NCBI GenBank assembly: GCA_030643695.1
Contig: DAOWKM010000072.1
Span: 1-29,347, forward strand
Direction of reading: 5' to 3'
DNA: 29,347 nucleotides
Source of the DNA: Dehalococcoidia bacterium
Lineage (GTDB): Bacteria; Chloroflexota; Dehalococcoidia; Dehalococcoidales; DAOWKM01
Below, in pieces: positions 8,567 through 26,423 of the stretch. A program made the translations under genes and the position numbers. Every line of letters begins with the position of its first letter. Position 1 is the first letter of the stretch. A model generated the notes under the pieces. That model was given only the letters and a program-made list of their open reading frames with translations. It was not told where the DNA came from and searched no databases.

Positions 8567-8574
8567 GGGGGCTA

Positions 8575-9342
8575 GTGTTAATATTAGCCGTTGGTGATGT
8601 AATTGGTCGGCCGGGTAGGCAGGCACTAAAGGAGCTTTTGCCACCCCTGCGACAGCAATACGGGATTGACCTAGTTATGGTTAATGCTGAGAATGCTGCT
8701 GGGGGTTTAGGTTTAACCCCGGCTACCGCTGAGGAACTACTCAATGCGGGGGCTGATGTATTGACCTCGGGTAATCATATATGGGCTCAAAGGGAGATTA
8801 TTCCATACCTTAGTGGTGAAATGCCTATCCTTCGCCCGTTAAATTATCCCCCTAGCGTACCGGGTAGGGGTTACATTGTCGGTAGCCAGGCGGTGGTGGT
8901 TAATTTGATAGGGAGAACCTTTATGAGTAATTTTGATTGCCCGTTTAGAGCTATGGATGAATTACTGGCTGAGCTTAAGCCCAAGCCCCCAGTTATTATT
9001 GTTGATTTTCACGCCGAGGCAACATCGGAGAAGATGGCGATGGGGCGATACCTGGATGGCCGAGTCAGCGCTGTGCTCGGCACCCATACTCATGTGGGGA
9101 CTATTGATGCCCAATTACTTCCTCAGGGTACTGCCTATGTCACTGATATTGGCATGACGGGACCGGTTGATTCAATTATAGGTGATGATACTGAGGCAGT
9201 GCTCTATCGTTTTCTAACCATAATACCCCGTCGCTTATCGGTAGGGAAGGGTAAAACAGTGTTTAACGCAGTCCTGGTTAGAGTAGATGACGACAGTGGT
9301 CGGGCAATAAGCATTGACCGAATCTGTCAGGAGGTGGAGTAG
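8575..9342 (+). CDS. ymdB: TIGR00282/YmdB metallophosphoesterase
   Basis: GDVIGRPG, NAENAAGG, SGNH, DFHAEATSEK, GTHTH and TDIGMTG motifs; downstream of rny as is typical. Confidence 0.92.
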   Translation: MLILAVGDVIGRPGRQALKELLPPLRQQYGIDLVMVNAENAAGGLGLTPATAEELLNAGADVLTSGNHIWAQREIIPYLSGEMPILRPLNYPPSVPGRGYIVGSQAVVVNLIGRTFMSNFDCPFRAMDELLAELKPKPPVIIVDFHAEATSEKMAMGRYLDGRVSAVLGTHTHVGTIDAQLLPQGTAYVTDIGMTGPVDSIIGDDTEAVLYRFLTIIPRRLSVGKGKTVFNAVLVRVDDDSGRAISIDRICQEVE

Positions 9343-9343
9343 G

Positions 9344-10168
9344 GTGGCTGGGGTAGACCTCCATATCCACTCCACTGCCTCTGATGGCCGACTCAGTCCG
9401 GTAGAGATTGTCCGTAAAGCCGGGGAAAAGGGGCTAATCGTTATTGCTCTGGCTGACCATGATACGGTAAACGGGATTGCTTCAGCTCAGGCAGCGGCTG
9501 AAGCCTTCCCTTGGCTGAGAGTTATCCCCTGTGTGGAAATTAGCACCGATGTCCCCGGGGGTGAGGTTCATATTCTGGGCTACTTTATAGATTATACTGC
9601 CCCTGAGCTAAAAGCCAGCCTGGAGAGGATGCGGGATTCTCGGCGGGGGCGGGCTCAAGGGATGATTACTAAATTGGCTAATTTGGGCATTCATATTGAG
9701 TGGCAGCGAGTCCAGGAGATAGCCGGCAGTGGCACTGTGGGGCGTCCTCACCTCGCTCAGGCTATGTTGGAGAAGGGTTATATCGCCTCAATCAAGGAGG
9801 CATTTACTAAATATATAAGTCGGGATGGACCGGCCTATGTTGAGCGGGAGAAGACAACTCCGCAGGAGGCGGTAAAACTGATATTGCGGGCTAACGGACT
9901 ACCAGTGCTGGCACACCCGTTAACTGTTAACGACCCTGAAGCGATGGTTGTTGAGCTAAGGGCAGCAGGGCTGGTAGGTATTGAAGCCTACTACGATAGC
10001 TATACTGCTGATGAAATCAACGGGTTAGTTAGCCTAGCTAATAAGTATAATCTTATTGCCACTGGTGGCAGTGATTACCATGGTCTGGATGCTGACATTG
10101 AGACTGTGATTGGTGGTGTAGATGTGCCTATGGAAGCAGTAGAGCGGCTTATGGCTCTGGCAAAATAG
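9344..10168 (+). CDS. PHP domain phosphoesterase (TrpH-like)
   Basis: DLHIHSTASDG, LADHDT, HILGY, RPH, LAHP and GGSDYHG motifs. GTG 9344 chosen because of AGGAGG/GGAG upstream. Confidence 0.9.
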   Translation: MAGVDLHIHSTASDGRLSPVEIVRKAGEKGLIVIALADHDTVNGIASAQAAAEAFPWLRVIPCVEISTDVPGGEVHILGYFIDYTAPELKASLERMRDSRRGRAQGMITKLANLGIHIEWQRVQEIAGSGTVGRPHLAQAMLEKGYIASIKEAFTKYISRDGPAYVEREKTTPQEAVKLILRANGLPVLAHPLTVNDPEAMVVELRAAGLVGIEAYYDSYTADEINGLVSLANKYNLIATGGSDYHGLDADIETVIGGVDVPMEAVERLMALAK

Positions 10169-10191
10169 TCAGTGCTGAAGAAAGAGAACTT

Positions 10192-10890
10192 ATGGCTATT
10201 GAGTTTGTATTATTAGTGCTGGGTGCCTACCTTTTGGGTTCGGTGCCAGCTGCCTATTTAGTTACCAAGTGGTCTCGGGGAATAGACATTAGACAATACG
10301 GCAGTGGCAATGTTGGCGCGGCAAATGTAGTAACTGTTGCTTCCAAACGGTGGGCGGTTCCGGTAATTATTTTTGATTTAGGTAAGGGGATGGTGATGGT
10401 TTGGGTAGCTCAACTGGTGGGACTGGGTATTGCTCAGCAGGTGGCAGTGGGCTTGGCGGCAATTATTGGCCATAACTGGCCCGTTTTTCTCCACTTTAAT
10501 GGTGGTAGGGGGGGTCTAACTCTTACTGGCGTCGCCCTTATTTTAGCACCAAAGCTGACGCTGATATTACTACTCTTTGTTTTCCTTTCCACTATATTCA
10601 GGCAGATGGCTTTGGGGGTGGTGGTGGCGGTGGCAGCCTTGCCCATATTGAGCTGGTTTCTTAGTCAGCCATTGGGCATTAAAGAGCCGCTACCAGTTAG
10701 TCTGGGTTTCTTGGCTATATTTCTAATTACGGTGCTCAGACGATTAACAGCTCCACGAACTTCAGTTACTGCCTCGGTAAGTCCAAGGCAGCTGTTAGTT
10801 AACCGTCTATTTTTTGACCGGGACATAAGGGATAGAGAGGCCTGGATGCATCGTGCCCCTGAACAACAAGAGAAGCAGAAGAAAGGTTAA
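10192..10890 (+). CDS. plsY: Glycerol-3-phosphate acyltransferase PlsY-family protein (atypical C-terminal motif)
   Basis: GSVP, DIRQYGSGNVGAAN, DLGKG and GHNWPVFLHFNGGRG motifs; multi-TM. Confidence 0.85.
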   Translation: MAIEFVLLVLGAYLLGSVPAAYLVTKWSRGIDIRQYGSGNVGAANVVTVASKRWAVPVIIFDLGKGMVMVWVAQLVGLGIAQQVAVGLAAIIGHNWPVFLHFNGGRGGLTLTGVALILAPKLTLILLLFVFLSTIFRQMALGVVVAVAALPILSWFLSQPLGIKEPLPVSLGFLAIFLITVLRRLTAPRTSVTASVSPRQLLVNRLFFDRDIRDREAWMHRAPEQQEKQKKG

Positions 10891-10900
10891 TTATAATGCG

Positions 10901-11374
10901 ATGAAATGTGCTTATCACCCTGATGTTGAAACTAACCTGAGGTGCGGTAAGTGCGGTAAGCCAATATGCCCTAAGTGCCTGGTGCAGACGCCAGTGGGAG
11001 CCAGATGCCCAGATTGCGCCCGACTTTATAAGCTACCTACCTATCGGGTTTCTACTAAATACTACCTGAGGGCGATGGGGACAGGGTTAGGTATGGCTAT
11101 TGCTGGTGGCCTTGCCTGGGCGGCGGTAACGGGTTTGGTGTCTTTCCTTTACCTCAACCTCCTTTTGGCTCCTGGCATTGGTTATGCTATTGGGCAAGTA
11201 GTCAGCCTTTCGGTTAACCGCAAACGCAGCACGGGATTAGCCGTTGTTGCTGGCATTGCCGTAGTGATAAGCTACTTGGTTAGTATCCTTTGCCCTTGGG
11301 GATTTCCTTTTAGGCTTCTTGACCTATTAGCCCTGGCTCTGGGTATTTTTGTAGCTACTATCTACTTACGCTAA
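10901..11374 (+). CDS. B-box-type zinc finger plus 3-4 TM membrane protein
   Basis: CAYHPDVETNLRCGKCGKPICPKC...PVGARCPDC resembles the zinc-binding N-terminus seen on some rhomboid-associated proteins, but no rhomboid catalytic motif follows. Confidence 0.8.
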   Translation: MKCAYHPDVETNLRCGKCGKPICPKCLVQTPVGARCPDCARLYKLPTYRVSTKYYLRAMGTGLGMAIAGGLAWAAVTGLVSFLYLNLLLAPGIGYAIGQVVSLSVNRKRSTGLAVVAGIAVVISYLVSILCPWGFPFRLLDLLALALGIFVATIYLR

Positions 11375-11406
11375 AACAAGTTTTACACTGAGAAGGAGAC
11401 AAGGTG

Positions 11407-13494
11407 ATGGTTCCCCAACGGGAAATATTCTGGAATATTCTATATGGCGACTTAATACTTTACCCGTTAGCCGTTATTGTAGTTGGCATCTTTATCTATG
11501 CCATATACCGCCGCTATAAATTATGGCGATTAGGCACGCCAGATAACAGGTTTGCCCACCTGGATAGGAGACTATGGGCATTTATAGTTACCGGGGTTGT
11601 TGATGGTGTATTGCACCGGAGATTCTTTGGTGTCGGCGATAACCTAGGACATAGGTCCTTTTCCATCAAAGATTTTCTACCCAAGGAGCTTTACCCCGGA
11701 GTAATGCACTTCCTCATCTTTGTGGGCTGTATTGTATTGCTTCTAGGCGCATTTGTAGACTTTATTAGTCATTATCTCTTCCACTTTATGCACGGTGGTT
11801 TCTACCTGGGCTACTCAGTGGTTGTTGATGCCTTTGGCATACTGGTTCTAGTCGGGGCAACCCTGGCTATTGTCAGGCGCTATGTTCAAAAACCAGATAG
11901 ACTGGATAGTACTAATGAGGACTTGATTGCCCTCATCCTAATCGGTGTGGTGGTATTTACCGGCTTTATTGTTGAGGGATTTCGTATTGCGGCTACCGAG
12001 CTAAAGACAACCCCTAGTTGGGCACTATGGTCTCCTGGTGGCTTTATCCTGGCTCGGGCTTTTAGCGGTTTAGGTGAACAGACACTGCTGCTGTGGCACC
12101 GGATTACTTGGTGGGCGCACATGGTTATTGCCCTGGGGGCGATTACTTATGTTTCTCTCTACTGGAATAAATTATGGCATATAATTGTTTCCCCGTTGAA
12201 TGTATTCTTCAGGTCTCTGGAGCCCAGGGGAGCCCTGGTGCCCATCGACTTGGAGACCGCCGAGAGCTTTGGTGCTGCCAAGATTGAAGACTTTACCTGG
12301 AAGCAATTGATGGATTTGGATGCCTGCACTCGCTGTGGTCGGTGTCAGGATATCTGCCCGGCTTATTCCAGCGGAAAGCCATTGAGCCCGAAGAAGATTA
12401 CCCAGGACCTTAGAGGTAGTTTGCTGGAGCGGACACGCAATCCCGGGAATAGTAATCGGGCTCTTATCGGCGATGTGGTAACCAAGGATGAGATATGGGC
12501 TTGCACTACCTGTCGTGCCTGCCAGGAGGTATGCCCCGTCTATGTAGAGCATATTGGTAAGATTATTGACCTGAGGCGGAATCTGGTATTGGAGCAGGCT
12601 TCAATCCCGGAGACGGCTGAAAGGGCGCTCCGAAGCATTGAGAATAGAGGGCACCCGTGGCGAGGAACCACATTAACCAGAACTGGCTGGGCTCAGGGGC
12701 TTGATATTAAGACCCTGGCTGAGGATAGTGATATAGATATCCTGTATTGGGTTGGCTGCACCGAGGCCCTGGTAGATAGGAGTATGAAGACAGCTCAGGC
12801 TATGGGTAGGCTATTAAAGCAAGCTGGAGTTAAATTTGGTATCCTCGGCGATGAGGAGAGCTGCTGCGGTGACCCCGCCCGGCGCCTGGGTAATGAATAC
12901 CTCTTCCAGATTCAGGCTGAGAAAAATATTGAGTTGCTGAAGAGATATAATGTGAAGAAGATAGTTACTGCTTGTCCTCACTGCTATAACACTCTAAAGA
13001 ATGAATACCCCCAGTTCGGAGGAGAGTTTGAAGTTCTCCACCACACCGAGCTTATTGCCAGCTTGCTCAGAGAAGGTAGACTGAAAATTATCAAAGGCAG
13101 CAGGGGGGTAATAACCTATCACGATTCCTGTTACCTGGGGAGATATAATGATATTTATGAGCCACCGAGGCAGATTTTAAATAATATGCCTGATATTGAG
13201 GTTGTTGAGATGGAGCGGAATCGGGAAAGAAGCTTCTGCTGTGGTGCTGGCGGTGGTAATATGTGGATGGAAGAGCATATTGGCAGGAGAATCAGTGAGA
13301 TGCGCATTGAGCAGGTAATGGAGACCGGAGCTCAGGTGGTGGCTACTGCCTGTCCCTTCTGCCTTCAGATGCTGGATGATGCCATAAGGGCAAAAGCTGC
13401 CGAAGAATCGCTTAAGGTTATGGATGTTGCCGAGCTATTAGCCGGGTCGGCAATATATCGCCCTTATTCCGGGGCTGAAATGGTGAGAGAGTAG
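11407..13494 (+). CDS. Membrane-anchored heterodisulfide-reductase-like Fe-S oxidoreductase (TM domain + 2x[4Fe-4S] + two CCG domains)
   Basis: N-terminal multi-TM region with His residues, CTRCGRCQDICP, CTTCRACQEVCP, ESCCGDP, TACPHC, YHDSCYLGR, SFCCGAGGG and TACPFC. RBS AAGGAG. Confidence 0.9.
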   Translation: MVPQREIFWNILYGDLILYPLAVIVVGIFIYAIYRRYKLWRLGTPDNRFAHLDRRLWAFIVTGVVDGVLHRRFFGVGDNLGHRSFSIKDFLPKELYPGVMHFLIFVGCIVLLLGAFVDFISHYLFHFMHGGFYLGYSVVVDAFGILVLVGATLAIVRRYVQKPDRLDSTNEDLIALILIGVVVFTGFIVEGFRIAATELKTTPSWALWSPGGFILARAFSGLGEQTLLLWHRITWWAHMVIALGAITYVSLYWNKLWHIIVSPLNVFFRSLEPRGALVPIDLETAESFGAAKIEDFTWKQLMDLDACTRCGRCQDICPAYSSGKPLSPKKITQDLRGSLLERTRNPGNSNRALIGDVVTKDEIWACTTCRACQEVCPVYVEHIGKIIDLRRNLVLEQASIPETAERALRSIENRGHPWRGTTLTRTGWAQGLDIKTLAEDSDIDILYWVGCTEALVDRSMKTAQAMGRLLKQAGVKFGILGDEESCCGDPARRLGNEYLFQIQAEKNIELLKRYNVKKIVTACPHCYNTLKNEYPQFGGEFEVLHHTELIASLLREGRLKIIKGSRGVITYHDSCYLGRYNDIYEPPRQILNNMPDIEVVEMERNRERSFCCGAGGGNMWMEEHIGRRISEMRIEQVMETGAQVVATACPFCLQMLDDAIRAKAAEESLKVMDVAELLAGSAIYRPYSGAEMVRE

Positions 13495-13497
13495 ATT

Positions 13498-14835
13498 ATG
13501 ACCAATGAGAAAAAGAGAACAATAAACCGGCTGAAGACAATGTACCCCCTCCGGGCGCTGCTGGATGAAATGTATAAGGGAAATATTGAAGCTAGCAAGG
13601 CGGGGAAACCCACTGCCTGGTGCATGGTTACCTTTTGGGAGGGTGATGTTATTCTCAAGGCTATGGATGTAGAATCAGTCTATCCGGAAAATTATGGCGC
13701 TGTCTGTGCTGCCTTTGGAGCGGCTCCGGCTTATCTTGATCGTTCTGATGCCGATGGATTTCCGACCCATATGTGTGGCTATGCCCGAAACTGCCTCGGC
13801 TACACGGCTAGAATGATGGATTTGGGAGAAATACCGCCAGGGGCACCTATGGGGGGAATGCCCAAGCCGATACTATTGCTGAGCTCAGGCAGTTTGTGTG
13901 ATGCTCACTATAAGTGGTTCCAGGCACTAGGGCGCTACTTAGATGCTCCAGTGTGGACAATGGAGCTTCCTCTTCCCGGGGTGAAAGAGAGCCGGATAGA
14001 AGGTGCCTATGAGCACAATATTGGTTTCATGGTTGCCGAGCTAAGGGAGTTTGTTACCTTTCTGGAACGCCTATTGAGCAAGAAGATGGACTGGGATAAA
14101 TTAGATGAGCTGATAGACGACATGATAGAGATGAACCGGGTATGGTATGAGATTAATGAGCTGCGTAAGGCAAGACCTTGCCCTATGCACTCCCGGGACT
14201 TTTGGAGCAGTATGAGTGGCTCTCTTTATCCATCGGGAGACCTCAAGGTATCGGTGGATTTATATCGGAAGATGTATGATGAGGTAAAGTACAGGGTAGA
14301 TAACAATATAGGAGCTCTGCCTATTGAGGAGAAATATAGATTGCTGTTTCTTGAACTTCCGCCATGGCACAGCTTGGGTTTTTTCAATCAATTAGCCGAG
14401 AGGGGCTGGAATTTTGTGGTTGAGAGCTGGAGCTATCATCCGCCCCAACCTATAGATTTAACTAAAGTCAGCGACCCACTGGAGCGCATTGCTAGGTTCA
14501 CCTATCAATGGCTTACTGGCCGCTTCCCCGATGCCTTCAACGCTGGGGAGTGGGGGGGATATTCCGCTTATCCCTACCTGGAGTATGCCCAGGATTACCA
14601 ATGTGATGGGGCGCTCCTTCACCCCCTCGTTACCTGCCGCACCGCTACCAACCACTTGATGCTGGTTCAGGACCGGCTGATGAAAAAGCTGAAGATTCCT
14701 TCCTTGGTAGTGGAGGGAGATATTGTCGACCTCAAACTTTTTGACCCTGTTGATGCCTTGAGGAAGGCAGAGACATTTGAGGAAACTATGAACCATTATA
14801 AGAAGGTGCGGCGGCAAGAAGGACTGGAATGGTAA
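13498..14835 (+). CDS. 2-hydroxyacyl-CoA dehydratase / benzoyl-CoA reductase family catalytic subunit (HgdA/BcrB-like)
   Basis: PENYGAVC, CGYARNC, SLCD and LVTCR Cys ligands; C-terminal LVVEGD...ETFEE pattern of the HGD-D family. Confidence 0.85.
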   Translation: MTNEKKRTINRLKTMYPLRALLDEMYKGNIEASKAGKPTAWCMVTFWEGDVILKAMDVESVYPENYGAVCAAFGAAPAYLDRSDADGFPTHMCGYARNCLGYTARMMDLGEIPPGAPMGGMPKPILLLSSGSLCDAHYKWFQALGRYLDAPVWTMELPLPGVKESRIEGAYEHNIGFMVAELREFVTFLERLLSKKMDWDKLDELIDDMIEMNRVWYEINELRKARPCPMHSRDFWSSMSGSLYPSGDLKVSVDLYRKMYDEVKYRVDNNIGALPIEEKYRLLFLELPPWHSLGFFNQLAERGWNFVVESWSYHPPQPIDLTKVSDPLERIARFTYQWLTGRFPDAFNAGEWGGYSAYPYLEYAQDYQCDGALLHPLVTCRTATNHLMLVQDRLMKKLKIPSLVVEGDIVDLKLFDPVDALRKAETFEETMNHYKKVRRQEGLEW

Positions 14836-15995
14836 TGGAGAGTCAGGGGTTAGCCAGAGTGAGAGAAATTTATCATGACCGGTCTCATCGAGTTAAACAG
14901 CTTAAGGCAGCCGGGGAGAAAGTAATCGGTTATTTTTGTGTCTATCCTGTTTTGGAGATGTTGACTGCTCTTAACCTGGTCCCCTATAGGGTATTTGGTG
15001 ATATGAGGGAACCGATAACCAAAGCCGACTCTTGCCTGCCTACAGTGGTTTGTCCCTTTATTCGTAGCGCCTTGGACCTGGGATTGAAAGGTAAGTATGA
15101 CTTCTTAGACGGGGTAGTAATGGCTCATGTTTGTGAGGTTGGAGAGAAGACAGCTCACATCTGGAATCTCTATCTGAACCCTCCTTATTTCCATTTTATA
15201 GATACTCCTCACACTGTACATAAGGCAGCCCAGAAGCAGCATAAGGAGTTGCTGAAGGACTTTGAAAAAACCCTGGAGTTGTTTACCGGAAAGGAGCTTT
15301 CTCCAGGAAGGCTCAGGGAAGCCATTGAAGCCCATAATCAGCAGCGGGCACTGGTGCGGGAATTATATAACTTAAGGAAGCCTGACCCACCCCTTATCTC
15401 AGGGACAGAAACTCTTCAGGTAATGGTGGCGTTGATGAGCCTCCCCGTGGAGGAGGGTAATAAGCTGTTGAGGCAGGTTATAAATGAGGTTAAGGGGCGC
15501 AAAGATGGTCTGCAGAAGAAAACAAGGCTTCTTATCTGGGGCAGCATTATAGATGATGTGGCTCTTATTGAGATGATTGAAGGGCTTGGCGCCAACCTGG
15601 TTATGGATGATACCTGCGTAGGCAGCCGGTTCTATTTCCCTGATGTAGAGCTTACCGATGACCCCTTAGACGGTTTAGCCTATCGCTATCTGGTGGAACT
15701 CAAGTGCCCTCGCACCTTCAGGGAAGCCGTCTTCGGCGAGACCAAGAAGGATTATATGGCTGACCTGGACAGTCGGTTTAGCTATCTGAAGGAATACGCT
15801 AGGGAATGGAATGTCAACGGGGTAATCCTTCAGTCGGTAAGGTATTGCGATATTCATGGCTACGAGGTGCCCCAGGTTAAGGATTATCTTGACAGCATCG
15901 GCTTGCCCAGCATATACCTGGAGCATGATTATAGTGAGGCGGCTTTGGCACCATTAAGGACGAGGGTTCAGGCTTTCCTTGAGGTAATCAGCTAA
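14829..15995 (+). CDS. 2-hydroxyacyl-CoA dehydratase / benzoyl-CoA reductase family catalytic subunit (HgdB/BcrC-like)
   Basis: GYFCVYPVLEML, VCPF, DDTCVGSR, RYCDIHG and LEHDY...LRTRVQAFLE motifs. Confidence 0.85.
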   Translation: MVMESQGLARVREIYHDRSHRVKQLKAAGEKVIGYFCVYPVLEMLTALNLVPYRVFGDMREPITKADSCLPTVVCPFIRSALDLGLKGKYDFLDGVVMAHVCEVGEKTAHIWNLYLNPPYFHFIDTPHTVHKAAQKQHKELLKDFEKTLELFTGKELSPGRLREAIEAHNQQRALVRELYNLRKPDPPLISGTETLQVMVALMSLPVEEGNKLLRQVINEVKGRKDGLQKKTRLLIWGSIIDDVALIEMIEGLGANLVMDDTCVGSRFYFPDVELTDDPLDGLAYRYLVELKCPRTFREAVFGETKKDYMADLDSRFSYLKEYAREWNVNGVILQSVRYCDIHGYEVPQVKDYLDSIGLPSIYLEHDYSEAALAPLRTRVQAFLEVIS

Positions 15996-16010
15996 AAAAG
16001 GAGATTTAAT

Positions 16011-16853
16011 ATTTATTTTGCTGGAATTGACCTAGGTTCCACCATGACCAAGGTGGTAATTATGGATGTGGACGGCGGGATTTGCGCTCGTGTTGTCGGT
16101 CCCACCGGTGCTGAGCACCGCCGGCTGGCTAACAGGGTAATGGAGGAGGCACTGGAGCAGGCTAATCTATCTTTTGATGAAATATCCTATGTGATAGCCA
16201 CCGGCTACGGCAGGCTCAATGTTCCCTTTGCCGACCGCCAGATAACGGAATTAACCTGCCACGCTAGGGGGGTGGTCAGCCTCTTCCCTGCCGTCAGAAT
16301 AGCCATTGATATTGGGGGACAGGATGCCAAGGGGCTCAAGATTAAAGAGGGGAAGCTAATTGACTTTGTTATGAATGACAAGTGTGCTGCCGGAACCGGC
16401 AGGTTTCTGGAGGTCATCGCTGCTGCCCTTGGCGTCAAGCTAGAGGAACTGGGAGAAATTTCATTAAAGTCTACCAATAAGGTTAAGATTAGCAATACCT
16501 GCACTATTTTTGCCCAGCAGGAGGTAATATCTTATATCTCTAAGGGGATACCATTGGAGGACATCGTGGCTGGGCTTCATGATGCTATCACCAGCCGGGT
16601 AGTCAAAATGGTGCGAAGGCTGAAGATAGAGCCTGATGTGGTGTTTACCGGGGGTGTGGCTAAGAATATCGGAGTAGTTTATGCTATGAAGGAGAACCTG
16701 GGATGCGAGGTTCTTGTTCCTGAGGAACCACTTTTCACTGGGGCAATAGGTGCTGCTATATTAGGCAAGGAACTCACCCTGGGAGCCATGTCCAAGGGTG
16801 AGCCTATTCCGAGGAAGGAGCGTCGTCTGGAGGAGATTACCTTCTTCAGCTAG
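16011..16853 (+). CDS. ATP-dependent [4Fe-4S] activase subunit 1 (BadF/BadG/BcrA/BcrD, HgdC-like); probable ATT start
   Basis: GIDLGSTMTK, ATGYGR, DIGGQD, NDKCAAGTG, NTCTIF and GGVAKN motifs. The phosphate-1 loop lies upstream of the first ATG (16044), so the start is placed at ATT 16011. Confidence 0.85.
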   Translation: MYFAGIDLGSTMTKVVIMDVDGGICARVVGPTGAEHRRLANRVMEEALEQANLSFDEISYVIATGYGRLNVPFADRQITELTCHARGVVSLFPAVRIAIDIGGQDAKGLKIKEGKLIDFVMNDKCAAGTGRFLEVIAAALGVKLEELGEISLKSTNKVKISNTCTIFAQQEVISYISKGIPLEDIVAGLHDAITSRVVKMVRRLKIEPDVVFTGGVAKNIGVVYAMKENLGCEVLVPEEPLFTGAIGAAILGKELTLGAMSKGEPIPRKERRLEEITFFS

Positions 16854-16866
16854 AGGGCAATTAAAT

Positions 16867-17652
16867 ATGGCTTGGTTTATGGGCATTGACATTGGCTCAG
16901 TAACTAGCAAGGGAGCTATAACTAAAGATGGTAAGCTTTTAGTGGCTTATCATCTGCTTCCTTCCGGGGCTAATTACCGGGCAGTAGCCCAAAGGTTGAG
17001 GGAAGAGCTTTTGGCAAGGGCGGGACTGTCCCCACAGGAGATAACCTATACTATAGCCACCGGCTACGGGGCGGGCAGCGTTTCCTTTAGCGATGAACAG
17101 GTGGCTGATATCCGCTGCTGTGCCCGGGGAACGAGCAGCCTTTTTCCCTCGGCAAGAACAGTCATTGATATACAGGGGATGTCTAGCCAGGTGATTCGCC
17201 TTGATGAGGAGGGGCAAGTGACCAACTTTGTGGTCAGTGAGAAGTGTGCCGCCGGCAGCGGGCGCTTTCTTGAGATTATTGCCAATGTCCTCAGGATAAA
17301 CCTCAACGATATTGGTCCTCTTTCCCTCAAGTCTAAAAATCCCATCACCTTCACTACCGGGTGTGCCGTTTTTGGAGAATCAGAGGCTATCTCCAGGGTA
17401 GCCGAAGGCATCTCCAAGGAGGATATTCTGGCTGGGGTTCATATGGCGCTGGCTAGTAAGCTCTCTGCCCTCATTGATAGGGTTGGGCTGGAAGAGCAAT
17501 GCGCCATTAGTGGTGGCGGTGGCGTTAATGTTGGGCTTATCAGAAGTTTGGAAGAGAAGCTGGGAATTCAGTTATTGGTGCCCCCTCAGCCCCAGCTCAT
17601 TACCGCCTTAGGCGCGGCTATAATGGCTGAAGAAAAGCAAAAAGGGATTTAG
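16867..17652 (+). CDS. ATP-dependent activase subunit 2 (BcrA/BcrD family, divergent motifs)
   Basis: GIDIGSVTSK, ATGYGA, DIQGMS, EKCAAGSG and TGCAVF motifs. Start ATG 16867. Confidence 0.85.
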   Translation: MAWFMGIDIGSVTSKGAITKDGKLLVAYHLLPSGANYRAVAQRLREELLARAGLSPQEITYTIATGYGAGSVSFSDEQVADIRCCARGTSSLFPSARTVIDIQGMSSQVIRLDEEGQVTNFVVSEKCAAGSGRFLEIIANVLRINLNDIGPLSLKSKNPITFTTGCAVFGESEAISRVAEGISKEDILAGVHMALASKLSALIDRVGLEEQCAISGGGGVNVGLIRSLEEKLGIQLLVPPQPQLITALGAAIMAEEKQKGI

Positions 17653-24678: not shown

Positions 24679-25581
24679 ATGATTCAAGTTGAAGAAATTA
24701 CTCAACCGCTGAAAATAGGTTACGAAAGAATCTGTCAATGCCCTGCTAATCATATCAACTGCTTGACACCCAAAGAATGGATTCGTTCGCAAGTAGCAAT
24801 ATGGGAATTATCTTACGAAAAGAGGGATATACGAGACAAGAAAATTCATCCAGCCGTTTTCCCAATTGCGTTGCCAGCGAAGTGTATAAAGCTATTTACA
24901 CACGAAGGAGAGTTAGTCCTTGATCCATTTGTAGGAATTGGAACTACTTTACTAGCTGCTCAAGACCTCAATAGAAATGCTGTTGGGTTTGACTTGAAAG
25001 AGGAATATCTAGAGGTTACTCAGTCCAGACTTTCACAAGGTAGACTCCTTAACGATACAAAGCAAATAGCAATACAGGATGATGCACGAAACATACCACA
25101 GTATTTAAAAGAGGAAACAGTAGCACTGGCAGTTGCGTCACCTCCTTACTCAAGATTTCTTGATAAACCTCGACTAAACAAGAGTATGAGAGGTGATTTA
25201 AGACAGAATGAGCACTATTTGACGATACAGCAATATTCGAATGACCCTAACGATATAGGCAACTTAGAGCCCATCGCATTCAGTAAAGCTTTGGGTGAAA
25301 TCTATCGGGGTATATTACCACTCTTGAAGACGAAAGCACATTGTGTAATCAACTTAAATGACTTATGGTGGGAAAACAAGCGGGTACCCACTCATATCTA
25401 CGTTGTAGAGGCAATGATGGAAGTTGGCTATGAGCTACGCAATATCCTGATTTGGGATAGAAGGAATCTTGTTAATCGAGTAGGTATTTTTGGATGGCCT
25501 AACAACTACATAAAACTAGGAACTACTTTTGAATATATCTTAGATTTTTGGAAACCACCACATCAAAAAACACGTTCATAG
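24679..25581 (+). CDS. Amino (N4-C/N6-A) DNA methyltransferase, motif I before motif IV
   Basis: HPAVFP, VLDPFVGIGTT (SAM binding), SPPY (catalytic), IWDRR...FEYILDFWK. RBS GGAGG. Confidence 0.92.
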   Translation: MIQVEEITQPLKIGYERICQCPANHINCLTPKEWIRSQVAIWELSYEKRDIRDKKIHPAVFPIALPAKCIKLFTHEGELVLDPFVGIGTTLLAAQDLNRNAVGFDLKEEYLEVTQSRLSQGRLLNDTKQIAIQDDARNIPQYLKEETVALAVASPPYSRFLDKPRLNKSMRGDLRQNEHYLTIQQYSNDPNDIGNLEPIAFSKALGEIYRGILPLLKTKAHCVINLNDLWWENKRVPTHIYVVEAMMEVGYELRNILIWDRRNLVNRVGIFGWPNNYIKLGTTFEYILDFWKPPHQKTRS

Positions 25582-26270
25582 CTATCAAAAAGCTGTAGAA
25601 AGTCTCCCTTGCTCATTCTGAATCCAGTCCCGTGGTCGTGATACTGTCCTTTCCGTTTACCACTTCTGAATACACCAATACGAATATCTACTTTAAGCTT
25701 GTCATTCTCAATTGATGATCTGAACTTGTTCCTGTTTAAATTAGAGAGTAAGTAACCCTCAATATAGTGAAACCTTTCGTTTGCGGAGTTCCTTTCTCCT
25801 TTTGTCTCAGCAAACACGAGCAAAGTCTTGTCTGATTTAAAAGTCAAAACATCATCCAATATAGTGGAGATTAACCAGTAGCATTCAATATTGTTCTTGT
25901 TATGAAGTACTAATCTATCATTCTCAAAGGCTACTCTGAAATACTGGGGATTATACCTTGAGCCATAACAAGTTGAATGTAGGTTATAGTAACCTTCATC
26001 ATCTAAGTATTTATAGTTTTCAAATAACACTCGGTTTACTCCCTTTGGCTCCGGAGACTTCGTGACGAGGGTCAACATACTTGCCGATTCAATCCTCTTA
26101 GTCTTCAGTTCTATCTCACCAATATCTGGCAATCTAAAGTTATTCTCCTTTAAACCTAACAAATCCTCTAACGTCTTACCTATTCCTGTATCGCCCGCTC
26201 TGTGAGTTTTTATATACCCCATATCTCTAATTACTAAGAGCTTTTGTTTAATTTCTTCAAGGCTTTTCAT
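25563..26270 (-). CDS. MvaI/BcnI-family type II restriction endonuclease
   Basis: GDTGIGKTLEDLLG..ENN...PD...ELKTKR...LTL and C-terminal HDHGTGFR motifs. Convergent with the MTase (19-bp overlap). ATG 26270 has GGAGG upstream. Confidence 0.88.
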   Translation of the reverse strand: MKSLEEIKQKLLVIRDMGYIKTHRAGDTGIGKTLEDLLGLKENNFRLPDIGEIELKTKRIESASMLTLVTKSPEPKGVNRVLFENYKYLDDEGYYNLHSTCYGSRYNPQYFRVAFENDRLVLHNKNNIECYWLISTILDDVLTFKSDKTLLVFAETKGERNSANERFHYIEGYLLSNLNRNKFRSSIENDKLKVDIRIGVFRSGKRKGQYHDHGTGFRMSKGDFLQLFDSYERVF

Positions 26271-26423
26271 TGCCAATCCTCCACTCGCCAGTAAGGTCAG
26301 TATAGCCTGTGAGTGAGACATTTGGCAATAACATCATATAGCCCCCATTCGCAATTTCATCCCCTAGGCTATATAATTGATTTAGTAAACATAATGAAGA
26401 ATAGTTCGGAAAGGAGGTGATAT

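What the first reader, a model, noticed from the sequence alone, without database searches (positions are those of the whole stretch)
10192..17652. Candidate new pathway: atypical PlsY + membrane Hdr-like electron donor + four-subunit BCR/HAD radical enzyme in one operon
Seen: seven co-oriented genes with gaps of about 30 bp or less and no terminator. No CoA ligase or transferase, ring-cleavage (dch/had/oah), acyl-CoA dehydrogenase or ETF genes are in the window. Known: two catalytic plus two activase subunits is the class I benzoyl-CoA reductase layout. The same superfamily, with two tandem activase domains, also includes the anaerobic plasmalogen synthase PlsA/PlsR and the glycerol ester reductase Ger, which reduce lipid esters. 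Inference: linkage to a glycerolipid acyltransferase homologue and a membrane Fe-S/CCG oxidoreductase suggests a split, membrane-fed reductase acting on lipids or a non-benzoyl thioester. Aromatic reduction or amino-acid fermentation remain alternatives.
Basis: partly seen in the sequence, partly recalled or inferred. Interest (0 to 1): 0.7.

Follow-up and report, generated by a model that had tools for sequence, protein, structure and literature searches.

The report
Radical acyl-CoA enzyme beside unrelated neighbours
The seven genes are real, but they are three separate units placed side by side by conserved gene order and a recent deletion: a spare lipid-acyltransferase copy, a known type of membrane enzyme that passes fatty-acid-oxidation electrons to quinone, and an unstudied ATP-driven iron-sulfur enzyme that most likely acts on acyl-CoA compounds rather than on lipids.

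Summary
Seven co-oriented, tightly packed genes lie at 10192-17652, with no CoA-pathway genes in the window.

The one-pathway reading does not hold:
- **The "Hdr-like" gene is an EtfD/EMO-type ETF:menaquinone oxidoreductase.** It matches PDB 9OJN at E 3e-110 and keeps every cofactor ligand. This enzyme type passes electrons to quinone; it is not a low-potential donor.
- **PlsY, a small zinc-ribbon gene and EtfD belong to a conserved backbone.** In relatives, RNase Y-YmdB-PHP-PlsY-small-EtfD persists without the radical enzyme. The enzyme also occurs without EtfD or PlsY.
[quoted passage not shown] It scores below every NCBIfam cut-off.
- **In 19 of 22 orthologous loci, thiolase and DUF35 lie directly upstream.** MaoC usually follows, facing an acyl-CoA mutase, ACAD, MeaB and CoA ligase. 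This points to an acyl-CoA substrate.

This lineage has lost all those partners, as independent cold-seep and marine-sediment contigs confirm. It keeps the enzyme under purifying selection and carries Arg137His at an otherwise invariant active-site residue.

Whether the enzyme reduces or dehydrates its substrate is unresolved. The scan has already reported related four-subunit enzymes on other genomes.

The parts
10192..10890 (+). PlsY-family paralog (232 aa), one of seven in the genome. It belongs to the NCBIfam PRK14417 'membrane protein' equivalog and is not the canonical PlsY.
   Evidence: PF02660 at 138 bits. PRK14417 at 301.7, above the cut-off of 249. TIGR00023 at 120, below the cut-off of 137.2. 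The canonical copy lies on contig C105 (155.2 > 137.2). The SGNxGxxN, DxxKG and GHxxP...GGxG motifs are intact. It lies next to PHP in nearly all relatives, with or without the enzyme.
10901..11374 (+). Small protein (157 aa from ATG 10901; the ORF is open from GTG 10853). It has an N-terminal four-Cys B-box-like zinc ribbon and a hydrophobic C-terminal half. Function unknown.
   Evidence: Translation. Weak zf-B_box hit, 22.9 bits, below cut-off. Orthologs of 55-66% identity follow PlsY in L026, L031, L048, L053, L059, L063, L068 and L158. Membrane helices were judged by eye only.
11404..13494 (+). EtfD/EMO-type membrane ETF:(mena)quinone oxidoreductase (696 aa): a heme-b transmembrane domain, two cubane [4Fe-4S] sites and two CCG domains.
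   Evidence: PDB 9ojn_A (M. smegmatis EtfD), E 3.4e-110, 372.6 bits. The alignment keeps His78/His241, Cys301/304/307/422, Cys311/412/415/418, Cys503/538/581/584 and the second CCG set (PMC13083937). Pfam finds CCG x2 and Fer4. It is the only full-length copy in the genome. The genome has two complete EtfAB pairs plus a fragment, and six ACADs.
13498..14835 (+). catA: the alpha-type (substrate-binding) HGD-D subunit (445 aa), with three Cys for a [4Fe-4S] cluster that has one open iron site.
   Evidence: PF06050 at 158 bits. PDB scores: HadB 91.8, MbdO 83.3, BzdO 69.8 bits. The equivalents of BzdO Cys95/128/380, Trp46, Glu65 and Tyr97 are present. The AlphaFold model has pLDDT 90.9 and TM 0.79-0.82 to MbdO, HadB, BzdO, BcrB, FldB and HgdA alike.
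13906..13908 (+). Codon 137 of catA: CAC, His. This is the position of BzdO His131, three residues after the cluster ligand Cys134. It is Arg in 61 of 62 homologs.
   Evidence: Column counts and local alignment. The same His occurs in the independent contig L157.
14829..15995 (+). catB: the beta-type HGD-D subunit (388 aa), predicted to bind a double-cubane [8Fe-9S] cluster.
   Evidence: PF06050 at 268.9 bits. NCBIfam: double_cubane 194 (cut-off 350), BzdN 191.5 (453.8), BcrC 153 and HadC 137, all below cut-off. PDB BzdN 8s02_B at 188.6 bits. All six BzdN ligands (Cys36/73/100/263/293/327) plus Arg53, Arg267 and His330 are aligned and conserved (PMC11971306).
16011..16853 (+). act1: a BcrAD/HgdC-type ATPase (280 aa if started at ATT 16011; the first ATG at 16044 would cut off the phosphate-1 loop).
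   Evidence: PF01869 at 205.8 bits and TIGR00241 at 263. AAGGAG lies 7 nt before the ATT. Four orthologs start with ATC or ATT at the same codon, and one with ATG. Both cluster Cys residues are conserved.
16867..17652 (+). act2: a second, distinct BcrAD/HgdC-type ATPase (261 aa), 41% identical to act1.
   Evidence: PF01869 at 173 bits. ATG at 16867 matches the orthologs' start. Both cluster Cys residues are conserved. pN/pS is 0.04 against L157.

Best explanation
The stretch holds three separate units, not one pathway.

**1. PlsY paralog and zinc-ribbon protein.** Together with the small membrane protein, the PRK14417-type PlsY paralog belongs to a conserved Dehalococcoidales backbone: RecA-RecX-RNase Y-YmdB-PHP-PlsY-small.

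**2. EtfD/EMO homolog.** The 696-aa membrane iron-sulfur protein takes electrons from reduced ETF, which is loaded by acyl-CoA dehydrogenases encoded elsewhere in the genome. It passes them through two CCG-bound clusters, two cubane clusters and heme b to a membrane quinone. Family membership is shown; the electron path is inferred by homology.

**3. [quoted passage not shown] Reduced ferredoxin loads the [4Fe-4S] cluster bridging act1 and act2. ATP hydrolysis then drives the electron to a double-cubane cluster in catB and on to the [4Fe-4S] cluster with an open iron site in catA, where the acyl group of a CoA thioester is reduced or dehydrated by a radical route. The ligands are shown; the electron path is inferred from BzdNOPQ and DCCP.

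- The substrate is most likely an aliphatic or alicyclic acyl-CoA, not benzoyl-CoA and not a glycerolipid.
- The cofactor set favours a reductase (about 0.5) over a 2-hydroxyacyl-CoA-type dehydratase (about 0.35).

In this lineage the enzyme's usual partner genes (thiolase/DUF35, MaoC, acyl-CoA mutase, ACAD, MeaB, ligase) have been deleted. That deletion is why the enzyme now sits 3 bp after etfD.
For: **EtfD**
- Matches 9ojn_A at E 3e-110 with all heme and cluster ligands conserved (PMC13083937; EMO preprint 10.64898/2026.08.18.745454).
- ETF and ACAD genes are present in the genome.
- It is the only full-length copy in the genome.

**The units are separable**
- The backbone with EtfD but without the enzyme occurs in L048, L053, L055, L056 and L059. 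Their genomes G022, G027 and G039 have no catB match, and G003 and G038 have only distant ones.
- The enzyme occurs with PlsY but no EtfD in L064, L068, L079 and L158, and in other contexts in L024, L028, L062 and L065.
- At genome level, full-length EtfD is present in 6 of 10 genomes with the enzyme and about 15 of 31 without it.

**Acyl-CoA context**
- Thiolase plus DUF35 lie directly upstream of catA in 19 of 22 orthologous loci.
- MaoC follows in 15 of 18 informative loci.
- A convergent mutase/ACAD/MeaB/ligase block is present in 13 loci. CoA-transferase III lies upstream in L027.

**Cofactors**
- Six-Cys BzdN signature in catB.
- Three Cys plus Glu65, Tyr97 and Trp46 equivalents in catA.
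- Two cluster Cys in each activase.

**The stripped layout is real**
- It recurs in the independent contig L157.
- Contigs in runs from three to four studies bridge both junctions.
- pN/pS is 0.04-0.23 for the four genes, like the flanking genes.
- The window and L157 are sister to L158, which carries the full island.
Against: - No experiment exists on any member of this clade, so substrate and chemistry are inferred from neighbours in other genomes.
- In this genome those neighbours are missing: no ortholog of thiolase/DUF35, MaoC, mutase or MeaB was found (genome 81% complete). The enzyme here may therefore have a changed role.
- The Arg137His change at an otherwise invariant active-site residue points the same way.
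- EtfD does sit next to the island in 7 loci, so a looser functional tie is possible, for example through the island's ACAD.
- A menaquinone route is not established: the best MenA-like hit scores 81.7, below the cut-off of 102.
- catA's best sequence matches are dehydratase alpha subunits.
- The sister clade sits beside a GlcD/GlcF-type hydroxyacid dehydrogenase and a CoA-transferase. This weakens the reductase lean.
Confidence: 0.65

Rival explanations
1. One reading: all seven genes form one pathway. A split PlsA/Ger-like reductase, fed with electrons by the membrane Hdr-like protein, modifies glycerolipids made by the atypical PlsY, for example by forming ether or vinyl-ether bonds.
For: - The genes are tightly packed with no terminator.
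- PlsY-small-EtfD-island synteny recurs in 7 relatives.
- PlsA/PlsR and Ger belong to the same superfamily (PMC12838417).
- This lineage has lost every CoA-pathway neighbour and still keeps the enzyme under selection, 3 bp after etfD.
- The genome holds seven PlsY paralogs.
Against: - The Hdr-like protein is an EtfD/EMO homolog with all ligands conserved. Its known role is ETF to quinone, and menaquinol is far too positive a donor for a BCR-type enzyme.
- The PlsY-small-EtfD block persists without the enzyme, and the enzyme occurs without the block.
- The ancestral context is thiolase/DUF35/MaoC/mutase/ACAD/ligase, which is acyl-CoA chemistry.
- The enzyme consists of four separate proteins of 445, 388, 280 and 261 aa, not the fused Act1-Act2-Red1 form of about 128 kDa described for PlsA (PMC12838417).
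- The co-oriented string also includes recA, recX, rny and ymdB, so packing alone carries no functional signal here.
Confidence: 0.07
2. It is a true class I aryl-CoA (benzoyl-CoA-type) reductase, as database labels on relatives say ('bzd-type benzoyl-CoA reductase N subunit'). The rest of the aromatic pathway would lie elsewhere.
For: - Four-subunit Bzd-like composition.
- The six-Cys double-cubane signature in catB, with BzdN as the best PDB hit at 188.6 bits.
- catA keeps the BzdO Trp46, Glu65 and Tyr97 equivalents, and here even a His at the His131 position.
- Source databases label some relatives as BCR subunits.
- Class I BCRs have been reported in marine Chloroflexi (PMC5736913).
Against: - All four NCBIfam Bcr/Bzd equivalogs score far below cut-off: 191 against 454, 78 against 449, 153 against 421 and 52 against 487.
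- The gene order is O-N-type, not bzdNOPQ.
- No Oah ortholog: best hit 62.5 bits against a cut-off of 464.
- No dch/had/oah-like genes lie in the window or in the relatives' islands.
- The clade's consensus residue at the BzdO His131 position is Arg, not His.
- The neighbours are thiolase/DUF35, MaoC and an acyl-CoA mutase, not ring-cleavage enzymes.
Confidence: 0.1
3. It is a 2-hydroxyacyl-CoA dehydratase. It uses ATP only catalytically to form an enoyl-CoA, which MaoC hydratase, a dehydrogenase and thiolase/DUF35 then process. This would give alpha-hydroxy acids an entry into beta-oxidation.
For: - catA's best sequence matches are HadB (NCBIfam 110.8 bits; PDB 91.8 bits).
- By structure, FldB and HadB rank equal with the reductases.
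- CoA-transferase III lies directly upstream in L027.
- MaoC, SDR and thiolase neighbours would consume an enoyl-CoA.
- The sister clade 2 is flanked by CoA-transferase III and a GlcD-like FAD oxidase plus an FeS/CCG protein.
- The island ACAD resembles acryloyl-CoA reductase AcrC: 503 bits, cut-off 640.
Against: - Characterised dehydratases have lost the double cubane (PMC11971306), whereas catB keeps all six ligands and the Arg/His surroundings.
- There are two distinct activase genes rather than one homodimeric activator.
- HadB and HadC equivalog scores are far below cut-off: 111 against 750 and 137 against 700.
- No 2-hydroxyacid dehydrogenase lies in clade-1 islands.
Confidence: 0.3

Closest known systems
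BzdNOPQ, Bzd-type class I benzoyl-CoA reductase (Aromatoleum sp. CIB; BzdNO structures 8S02/8S1T/8S2R; PMC11971306), and MbdONPQ (9G87/9GAI)
   Same: Four subunits: two HGD-D subunits and two different BcrAD ATPases. catB aligns with all six Cys of the BzdN [8Fe-9S] cluster plus Arg53, Arg267 and His330. catA keeps the three Cys of the [4Fe-4S]-OH2 cluster and the Trp46, Glu65 and Tyr97 equivalents. TM is 0.81-0.82 to BzdO and MbdO.
   Different: - Identity is only about 20-22% for catA, and catB scores 189 bits.
- Every NCBIfam equivalog score is less than half of its cut-off.
- Gene order is alpha-beta, not N-O.
- The clade has Arg where BzdO has His131.
- Glu381 is Arg.
- There are no ferredoxin, dch, had or oah neighbours. 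Instead the neighbours are thiolase/DUF35, MaoC and an acyl-CoA mutase.
(R)-2-hydroxyacyl-CoA dehydratases HadBC/HadI, FldBC/FldI, HgdAB/HgdC and LcdAB (3O3M)
   Same: The same alpha/beta HGD-D fold, with TM 0.79-0.81. HadB is the best sequence match for catA. The activase family is HgdC-type. Some relatives have a CoA-transferase III neighbour.
   Different: - catB retains the full double-cubane ligand set, which the dehydratases have lost.
- There are two distinct activase genes.
- No 2-hydroxyacid dehydrogenase is linked.
- Scores are far below the HadB and HadC cut-offs.
DCCP/DCCP-R double-cubane cluster protein (6ENO, 7YYL) and E. coli YjiM/YjiL
   Same: catB's top NCBIfam hit is the double_cubane model (194 bits), with conserved six-Cys ligands.
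   Different: DCCP is a homodimer with a single activase. Here a heterodimer pairs a double-cubane subunit with a three-Cys catalytic subunit. The score is below the cut-off of 350.
Anaerobic plasmalogen synthase PlsA/PlsR and glycerol ester reductase Ger
   Same: The same BCR/HAD superfamily, and two activase modules plus two reductase/dehydratase modules (PMC12838417).
   Different: PlsA fuses Act1-Act2-Red1 into one protein of about 128 kDa, or all four modules into one ORF. Here there are four separate genes. The ancestral neighbours are acyl-CoA enzymes, and the PlsY link is separable. No direct sequence comparison could be made because no reference sequence was available.
EtfD (M. smegmatis MSMEG_0690 / M. 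tuberculosis Rv0338c; 9OJN) and EMO of Syntrophus aciditrophicus
   Same: The same domain order: heme-b transmembrane domain, two cubane [4Fe-4S] clusters and two CCG domains. All ligands are conserved. The score is 372.6 bits and E 3e-110. ETF and ACAD genes are present in the genome.
   Different: It lacks the roughly 265-residue disordered C-terminal tail of mycobacterial EtfD. It keeps a full CCG (Cys-Cys-Gly) in the first CCG domain, where EtfD has Cys-Thr-Gly. It is not adjacent to etfAB. The quinone of this organism is not established.
PlsY, acyl-phosphate:glycerol-3-phosphate acyltransferase (TIGR00023)
   Same: PF02660 domain with all three conserved motifs.
   Different: It scores below the TIGR00023 cut-off and instead matches the PRK14417 'membrane protein' equivalog. 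It is one of seven paralogs, and the canonical copy lies on another contig.

Membership tests
Class I benzoyl-CoA reductase (Bcr/Bzd/Mbd) | Two HGD-D subunits plus two distinct BcrAD-type ATPase subunits encoded together | tested here: met
   Pfam PF06050 x2 and PF01869 x2 in four adjacent genes. act1 and act2 are 41% identical, and each has two cluster Cys residues.
Class I benzoyl-CoA reductase (Bcr/Bzd/Mbd) | Six-Cys [8Fe-9S] ligands in the N/C-type subunit and three-Cys [4Fe-4S] ligands in the O/B-type subunit | tested here: met
   Alignments to 8s02_B and 8s02_A. Residue numbers are from PMC11971306.
Class I benzoyl-CoA reductase (Bcr/Bzd/Mbd) | Scores above the curated equivalog cut-offs (TIGR03190/03191/02263/02260/03192/02259/02261) | tested here: not met
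   191.5/453.8, 77.9/448.6, 153.4/421, 51.8/486.6, 153/380, 158/578 and 126/313.
Class I benzoyl-CoA reductase (Bcr/Bzd/Mbd) | Acid/base pair Glu65 + His131 at the water ligand (BzdO) | tested here: inconclusive
   Glu is invariant. The window and L157 have His, but 61 of 62 homologs have Arg. MbdO, itself a reductase, also lacks His in the phmmer alignment.
Class I benzoyl-CoA reductase (Bcr/Bzd/Mbd) | Downstream dienoyl-CoA pathway (Dch/Had/Oah) in the genome or locus | tested here: not met
   The best Oah (TIGR03200) hit is 62.5 bits against a cut-off of 464 in the own genome, which is 81% complete. None is present in the window or the relatives' islands. Dch and Had were not searched separately.
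2-hydroxyacyl-CoA dehydratases (Had/Hgd/Fld/Lcd) | Alpha/beta HGD-D heterodimer scoring above the HadB/HadC equivalog cut-offs | tested here: not met
   110.8/750 and 136.7/700. The fold is shared, with TM about 0.8.
2-hydroxyacyl-CoA dehydratases (Had/Hgd/Fld/Lcd) | A single homodimeric activator, and a beta subunit without the second cubane | tested here: not met
   There are two different activase genes. catB keeps Cys263 and the other five ligands, whereas HadC has Ala at that column.
2-hydroxyacyl-CoA dehydratases (Had/Hgd/Fld/Lcd) | Linked CoA-transferase and 2-hydroxyacid dehydrogenase | tested here: inconclusive
   None in the window. CoA-transferase III is present only in L027 of clade 1. 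Both genes are present in sister clade 2.
PlsA/PlsR plasmalogen synthase and Ger | Fused Act1-Act2-Red1 polypeptide (with or without Red2) | tested here: not met
   Four separate ORFs of 445, 388, 280 and 261 aa. The architecture of PlsA is taken from PMC12838417.
PlsA/PlsR plasmalogen synthase and Ger | Sequence clustering with PlsA/PlsR/Ger rather than with other BCR/HAD clades | not testable with these tools
   No PlsA, PlsR or Ger reference sequence could be obtained as a file. The plasmid and genome scans returned none.
EtfD/EMO (ETF:menaquinone oxidoreductase) | Heme-b transmembrane domain with two His ligands, two cubane [4Fe-4S] sites and two CCG domains | tested here: met
   All ligands align with 9ojn_A. 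Pfam finds CCG x2 and Fer4, plus a weak NarI-like hit.
EtfD/EMO (ETF:menaquinone oxidoreductase) | ETF and acyl-CoA dehydrogenases present as electron donors | tested here: met
   Five PF01012 hits, which make up two EtfAB pairs and a fragment, and six PF00441 hits in the genome.
EtfD/EMO (ETF:menaquinone oxidoreductase) | Menaquinone as electron acceptor | tested here: inconclusive
   Two UbiA-family genes are present. The best MenA hit scores 81.7 bits, below the cut-off of 102. The genome is 81% complete.
PlsY (TIGR00023) | Score above the equivalog cut-off | tested here: not met
   120 < 137.2. It matches PRK14417 instead, at 301.7 > 249. The paralog on C105 passes at 155.2.

The most novel reading that the evidence does not exclude
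This cold-seep and marine-sediment lineage has deleted every acyl-CoA partner gene: thiolase/DUF35, MaoC, mutase, ACAD, MeaB and ligase. It nevertheless keeps the four-subunit radical enzyme under purifying selection, now directly behind etfD. It has also fixed Arg137His at an otherwise invariant residue next to the catalytic cluster, the position of BzdO His131. The enzyme may therefore have taken on a new substrate or role here.
Probability: 0.1. Interest if true: 0.7.

Novelty: new member of a known kind. Interest (0 to 1): 0.4.

Why it matters
Source databases label genes of this clade 'benzoyl-CoA reductase' or '2-hydroxyacyl-CoA dehydratase'. Class I BCR annotations have been used to infer aromatic degradation in subseafloor Chloroflexi (PMC5736913). 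The evidence here indicates that this abundant Dehalococcoidales clade is neither of those enzymes.

The clade belongs to a conserved acyl-CoA island: thiolase/DUF35, MaoC, an unusual acyl-CoA mutase, ACAD and a ligase. The substrate of that island is unknown, so one piece of carbon metabolism in widespread marine-sediment bacteria remains unassigned.

The finding also shows that tight gene packing in small, streamlined genomes can mimic an operon. Identifying the 'Hdr-like' gene as EtfD gives these organisms a specific candidate for the link between beta-oxidation and the membrane. The proposed new lipid pathway is not supported.

Tried and rejected
- **Named-reference phylogeny.** No Bcr, Bzd, Hgd, Had, PlsA or Ger sequences could be obtained as files. 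The genome-contig scan returned only MAGs. The plasmid search returned YjiM-type and unnamed homologs. I used HMM cut-offs, PDB scores and a tree without named references instead.
- **Structure search of catA.** TM is about 0.8 to reductase and dehydratase alpha subunits alike, so it does not discriminate.
- **Expression.** No RNA holder was listed for this stretch, so co-transcription could not be examined. Only DNA contigs were laid.
- **Promoter and terminator scan.** Counts were at chance level.
- **Rfam and tRNA scans.** Nothing was found.
- **Island mutase as 2-hydroxyisobutyryl-CoA mutase.** HcmA is the best PDB hit (376 bits against 341 for MCM). However, the Ile90 and Asp117 positions, as I recall them and with the residue numbering inferred, are Leu and Ala. 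An MCM-like Arg is also present, so the specificity is not assignable.
- **Link to acetone- and ketone-induced BCR/HAD subunits of sulfate reducers** (lead from an earlier scan note). The papers confirm that such proteins are induced together with a B12 mutase. Orthology to this clade could not be tested.
- **Second-tier homologs (46-47% identity).** They are not bona fide BzdN/O either.
- **Literature.** No paper combined Dehalococcoidia with hydroxyacyl-CoA dehydratase, and none covered the thiolase/DUF35/MaoC/mutase combination.

Full report
**Observation.** The window is contig C112 of a 0.9-Mb metagenome-assembled genome with 123 contigs, 81% complete. Record titles of close relatives place it in the Dehalococcoidales. 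ORF listing and family scans confirm seven co-oriented genes at 10192-17652:
- a PlsY-family protein
- a small ORF
- a 696-aa membrane FeS/CCG protein
- two HGD-D subunits, here called catA and catB
- two BcrAD-type ATPases, here called act1 and act2

After revising starts (small ORF ATG 10901, act1 ATT 16011, act2 ATG 16867), the spacings are 10, 29, 3, -7, 15 and 13 bp. Promoter- and terminator-like sites occur at chance level. No Rfam family or tRNA is present. The rest of the window holds no CoA ligase, CoA transferase, ACAD, ETF or crotonase. However, the co-oriented run really starts at nadE (4378) and includes recA, recX, rny, ymdB and a PHP gene. Tight packing is therefore the rule here and is not a sign of one pathway.

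**The 'Hdr-like' gene.** Its best solved relative is 9ojn_A, the cryo-EM structure of Mycobacterium smegmatis EtfD, at E 3.4e-110 and 372.6 bits. HdrB and HdrC score only about 30 bits. The alignment, read against the ligands listed in PMC13083937, conserves:
- both heme-b histidines
- all eight Cys of the two cubane clusters
- the four Cys of cluster D1
- the second CCG set

EtfD and the Syntrophus EMO (preprint 10.64898/2026.08.18.745454) oxidise reduced ETF and reduce menaquinone. The genome has two EtfAB pairs plus a fragment and six acyl-CoA dehydrogenases. This is its only full-length EtfD. A shorter CCG protein on C25 sits in an EtfBA/GlcD-like module of the lactate-dehydrogenase type. 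The protein is therefore a member of a known family whose electron flow runs into the quinone pool. This is the opposite of what a low-potential ATP-driven reductase needs. The quinone itself is not established.

**PlsY.** The genome has seven PF02660 genes. Only the C105 copy passes the PlsY equivalog TIGR00023 (155 > 137). The window's copy scores 120 on that model and instead fits the PRK14417 'membrane protein' equivalog (302 > 249), with its catalytic motifs intact. 'Atypical PlsY' is a fair description. PlsX was not found.

**Synteny test.** Orthologs of catB at 68% identity or more form a supported clade of 23 rows, all Chloroflexota (SH-aLRT 97). I examined 22 loci other than the window.
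- The backbone RNase Y-YmdB-PHP-PlsY-(small)-EtfD occurs without the enzyme in L048, L053, L055, L056 and L059. Their genomes have no catB match or only distant ones.
- The enzyme follows PlsY-(small) with no EtfD in L064, L068, L079 and L158. It lies in other neighbourhoods in L024, L028, L062 and L065.
- Among 41 order-level genomes, full-length EtfD is present in 6 of 10 with the enzyme and about 15 of 31 without it.
- In L059 and L048 an acyl-CoA-ligase-like ORF, judged from its N-terminal sequence and not scanned, lies right after EtfD. In L059 it lies between EtfD and Sir2, which marks this interval as a gain-and-loss spot.

**What travels with the enzyme.**
- Directly upstream of catA, 19 of 22 loci carry an SCP-x-type thiolase and a DUF35 (ChsH2-type OB/zinc-ribbon) protein. 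L027 has a family III CoA-transferase there instead.
- A MaoC hydratase follows act2 in 15 of 18 informative loci.
- Thirteen loci carry, on the opposite strand, a B12-binding small subunit, a 586-aa acyl-CoA mutase, an ACAD, MeaB and an acyl-CoA ligase, ending at the same Sir2 gene that follows act2 in the window.
- The ACAD is most like acryloyl-CoA reductase AcrC: 503 bits, below the cut-off of 640.
- L062 has Ptb-Buk, a thiolase and an SDR instead.
- The mutase is nearest to HcmA but has its own specificity residues.

All of this is acyl-CoA chemistry, and none of it concerns glycerolipids.

**The enzyme itself.**
- catB aligns with all six Cys ligands of the BzdN [8Fe-9S] double cubane, and with Arg53, Arg267 and His330 around it (PMC11971306).
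- Both activases keep the two Cys of the bridging cluster.
- Every curated NCBIfam equivalog is missed by a wide margin, including Bzd, Bcr, Had and DCCP.
- PDB scores are mixed. For catB: BzdN 189, HadC 118, DCCP 113. For catA: HadB 92, MbdO 83, BzdO 70.
- A confident model of catA (pLDDT 90.9) is equally close, at TM about 0.8, to MbdO, BzdO and BcrB and to HadB, FldB, HgdA and LcdA.
- No Oah ortholog exists in the genome.

**Reductase or dehydratase.** The double-cubane signature and the two activase genes favour a reductase. Three points favour a dehydratase: the HadB-like catA; the enoyl-CoA-consuming neighbours; and the sister clade 2. That clade shows 42-48% identity and is widespread in Dehalococcoidales, Thermodesulfobacteriota, Syntrophorhabdus and Acidobacteriota. 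It is flanked by a CoA-transferase III, a GlcD-like FAD oxidase and an FeS/CCG protein. I put reductase at about 0.5 and dehydratase at about 0.35.

**This lineage is a stripped version.**
- Between EtfD and Sir2 the window has only catA-catB-act1-act2.
- The genome has no ortholog of the island's thiolase/DUF35, MaoC, mutase or MeaB. It has only paralogs of about 35% identity of the thiolase, ACAD and ligase.
- The same layout occurs in an independent assembly, L157, with catB 98% identical.
- Contigs from other studies bridge both junctions: EtfD-catA in X4 and X9, and act2-Sir2 in X2, X4, X9 and X14. These runs are cold-seep and marine-sediment metagenomes.
- The nearest outgroup, L158 (87% identity), has the full island. 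The loss is therefore recent.
- The four genes remain under purifying selection, with pN/pS 0.04-0.23 against L157, like their neighbours at 0-0.28.
- Both stripped genomes carry His at catA residue 137, the position of BzdO His131. There, 61 of 62 homologs across three clades have Arg.

This leaves a small chance that the enzyme has a changed role here.

**Verdict.** The finding is real as an observation but ordinary as a pathway claim. [quoted passage not shown] Related four-subunit enzymes have already been reported by this scan on other genomes.

Noticed in passing
window 15998-16046; L023, L024, L028, L029, L027: act1 starts at ATT, 7 nt after AAGGAG. Orthologs use ATC or ATT at the same codon after a GGAG(G) site in four loci, ATG in one, and an upstream ATG in two. 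A conserved non-AUG start on one activase subunit suggests translational throttling.
   Followed up: partly
window 13906-13908 (catA codon 137); L157: His (CAC) stands where 61 of 62 homologs have Arg, three residues after the cluster ligand Cys134, at the position of BzdO His131. It is fixed in both assemblies of the lineage that lost the acyl-CoA island.
   Followed up: partly
own genome contigs C105, C3, C121, C85, C75, C117 and window 10192-10890: A 0.9-Mb genome holds seven PlsY-family paralogs. Only one passes the PlsY equivalog, and PlsX was not found at 81% completeness. The roles of the extra copies are unknown.
   Followed up: partly
L067:7191-8951 (- strand), and orthologs in L023, L024, L025, L030, L063-L068, L158: The acyl-CoA mutase linked to the enzyme in relatives is closest to 2-hydroxyisobutyryl-CoA mutase HcmA (376 bits). 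However, it has Leu, Ala and Arg at the positions that distinguish HCM, ICM and MCM, so it may have a new specificity. The residue roles are recalled from memory and the numbering offset is inferred.
   Followed up: partly
L089:3543-12847, and similar loci L087, L094, L099, L102, L117: The sister clade has the gene order CoA-transferase III, MBL-fold protein, beta subunit, alpha subunit, two activases, GlcD-like FAD oxidase, FeS/CCG protein. In this clade an Hdr-like CCG protein really is linked to a BCR/HAD-type enzyme, probably as part of a hydroxyacid dehydrogenase.
   Followed up: partly
own genome contig C25, about 8570-13130 (L060:4566-9125): An EtfB-EtfA-GlcD-like-FeS/CCG cluster resembles electron-confurcating lactate dehydrogenase/Etf modules. 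The GlcD-like call was made by eye and not scanned.
   Followed up: no
window 24679-26321: A DNA methylase fragment and an MvaI/BcnI-type restriction endonuclease lie in a low-GC stretch (GC 0.38-0.42 against about 0.49). This is probably an acquired restriction-modification unit.
   Followed up: no
L030 (G016:C31): In this relative catA-catB are followed directly by MaoC, with no activase genes at the locus. The activases must be encoded elsewhere or shared with another system in that genome.
   Followed up: no
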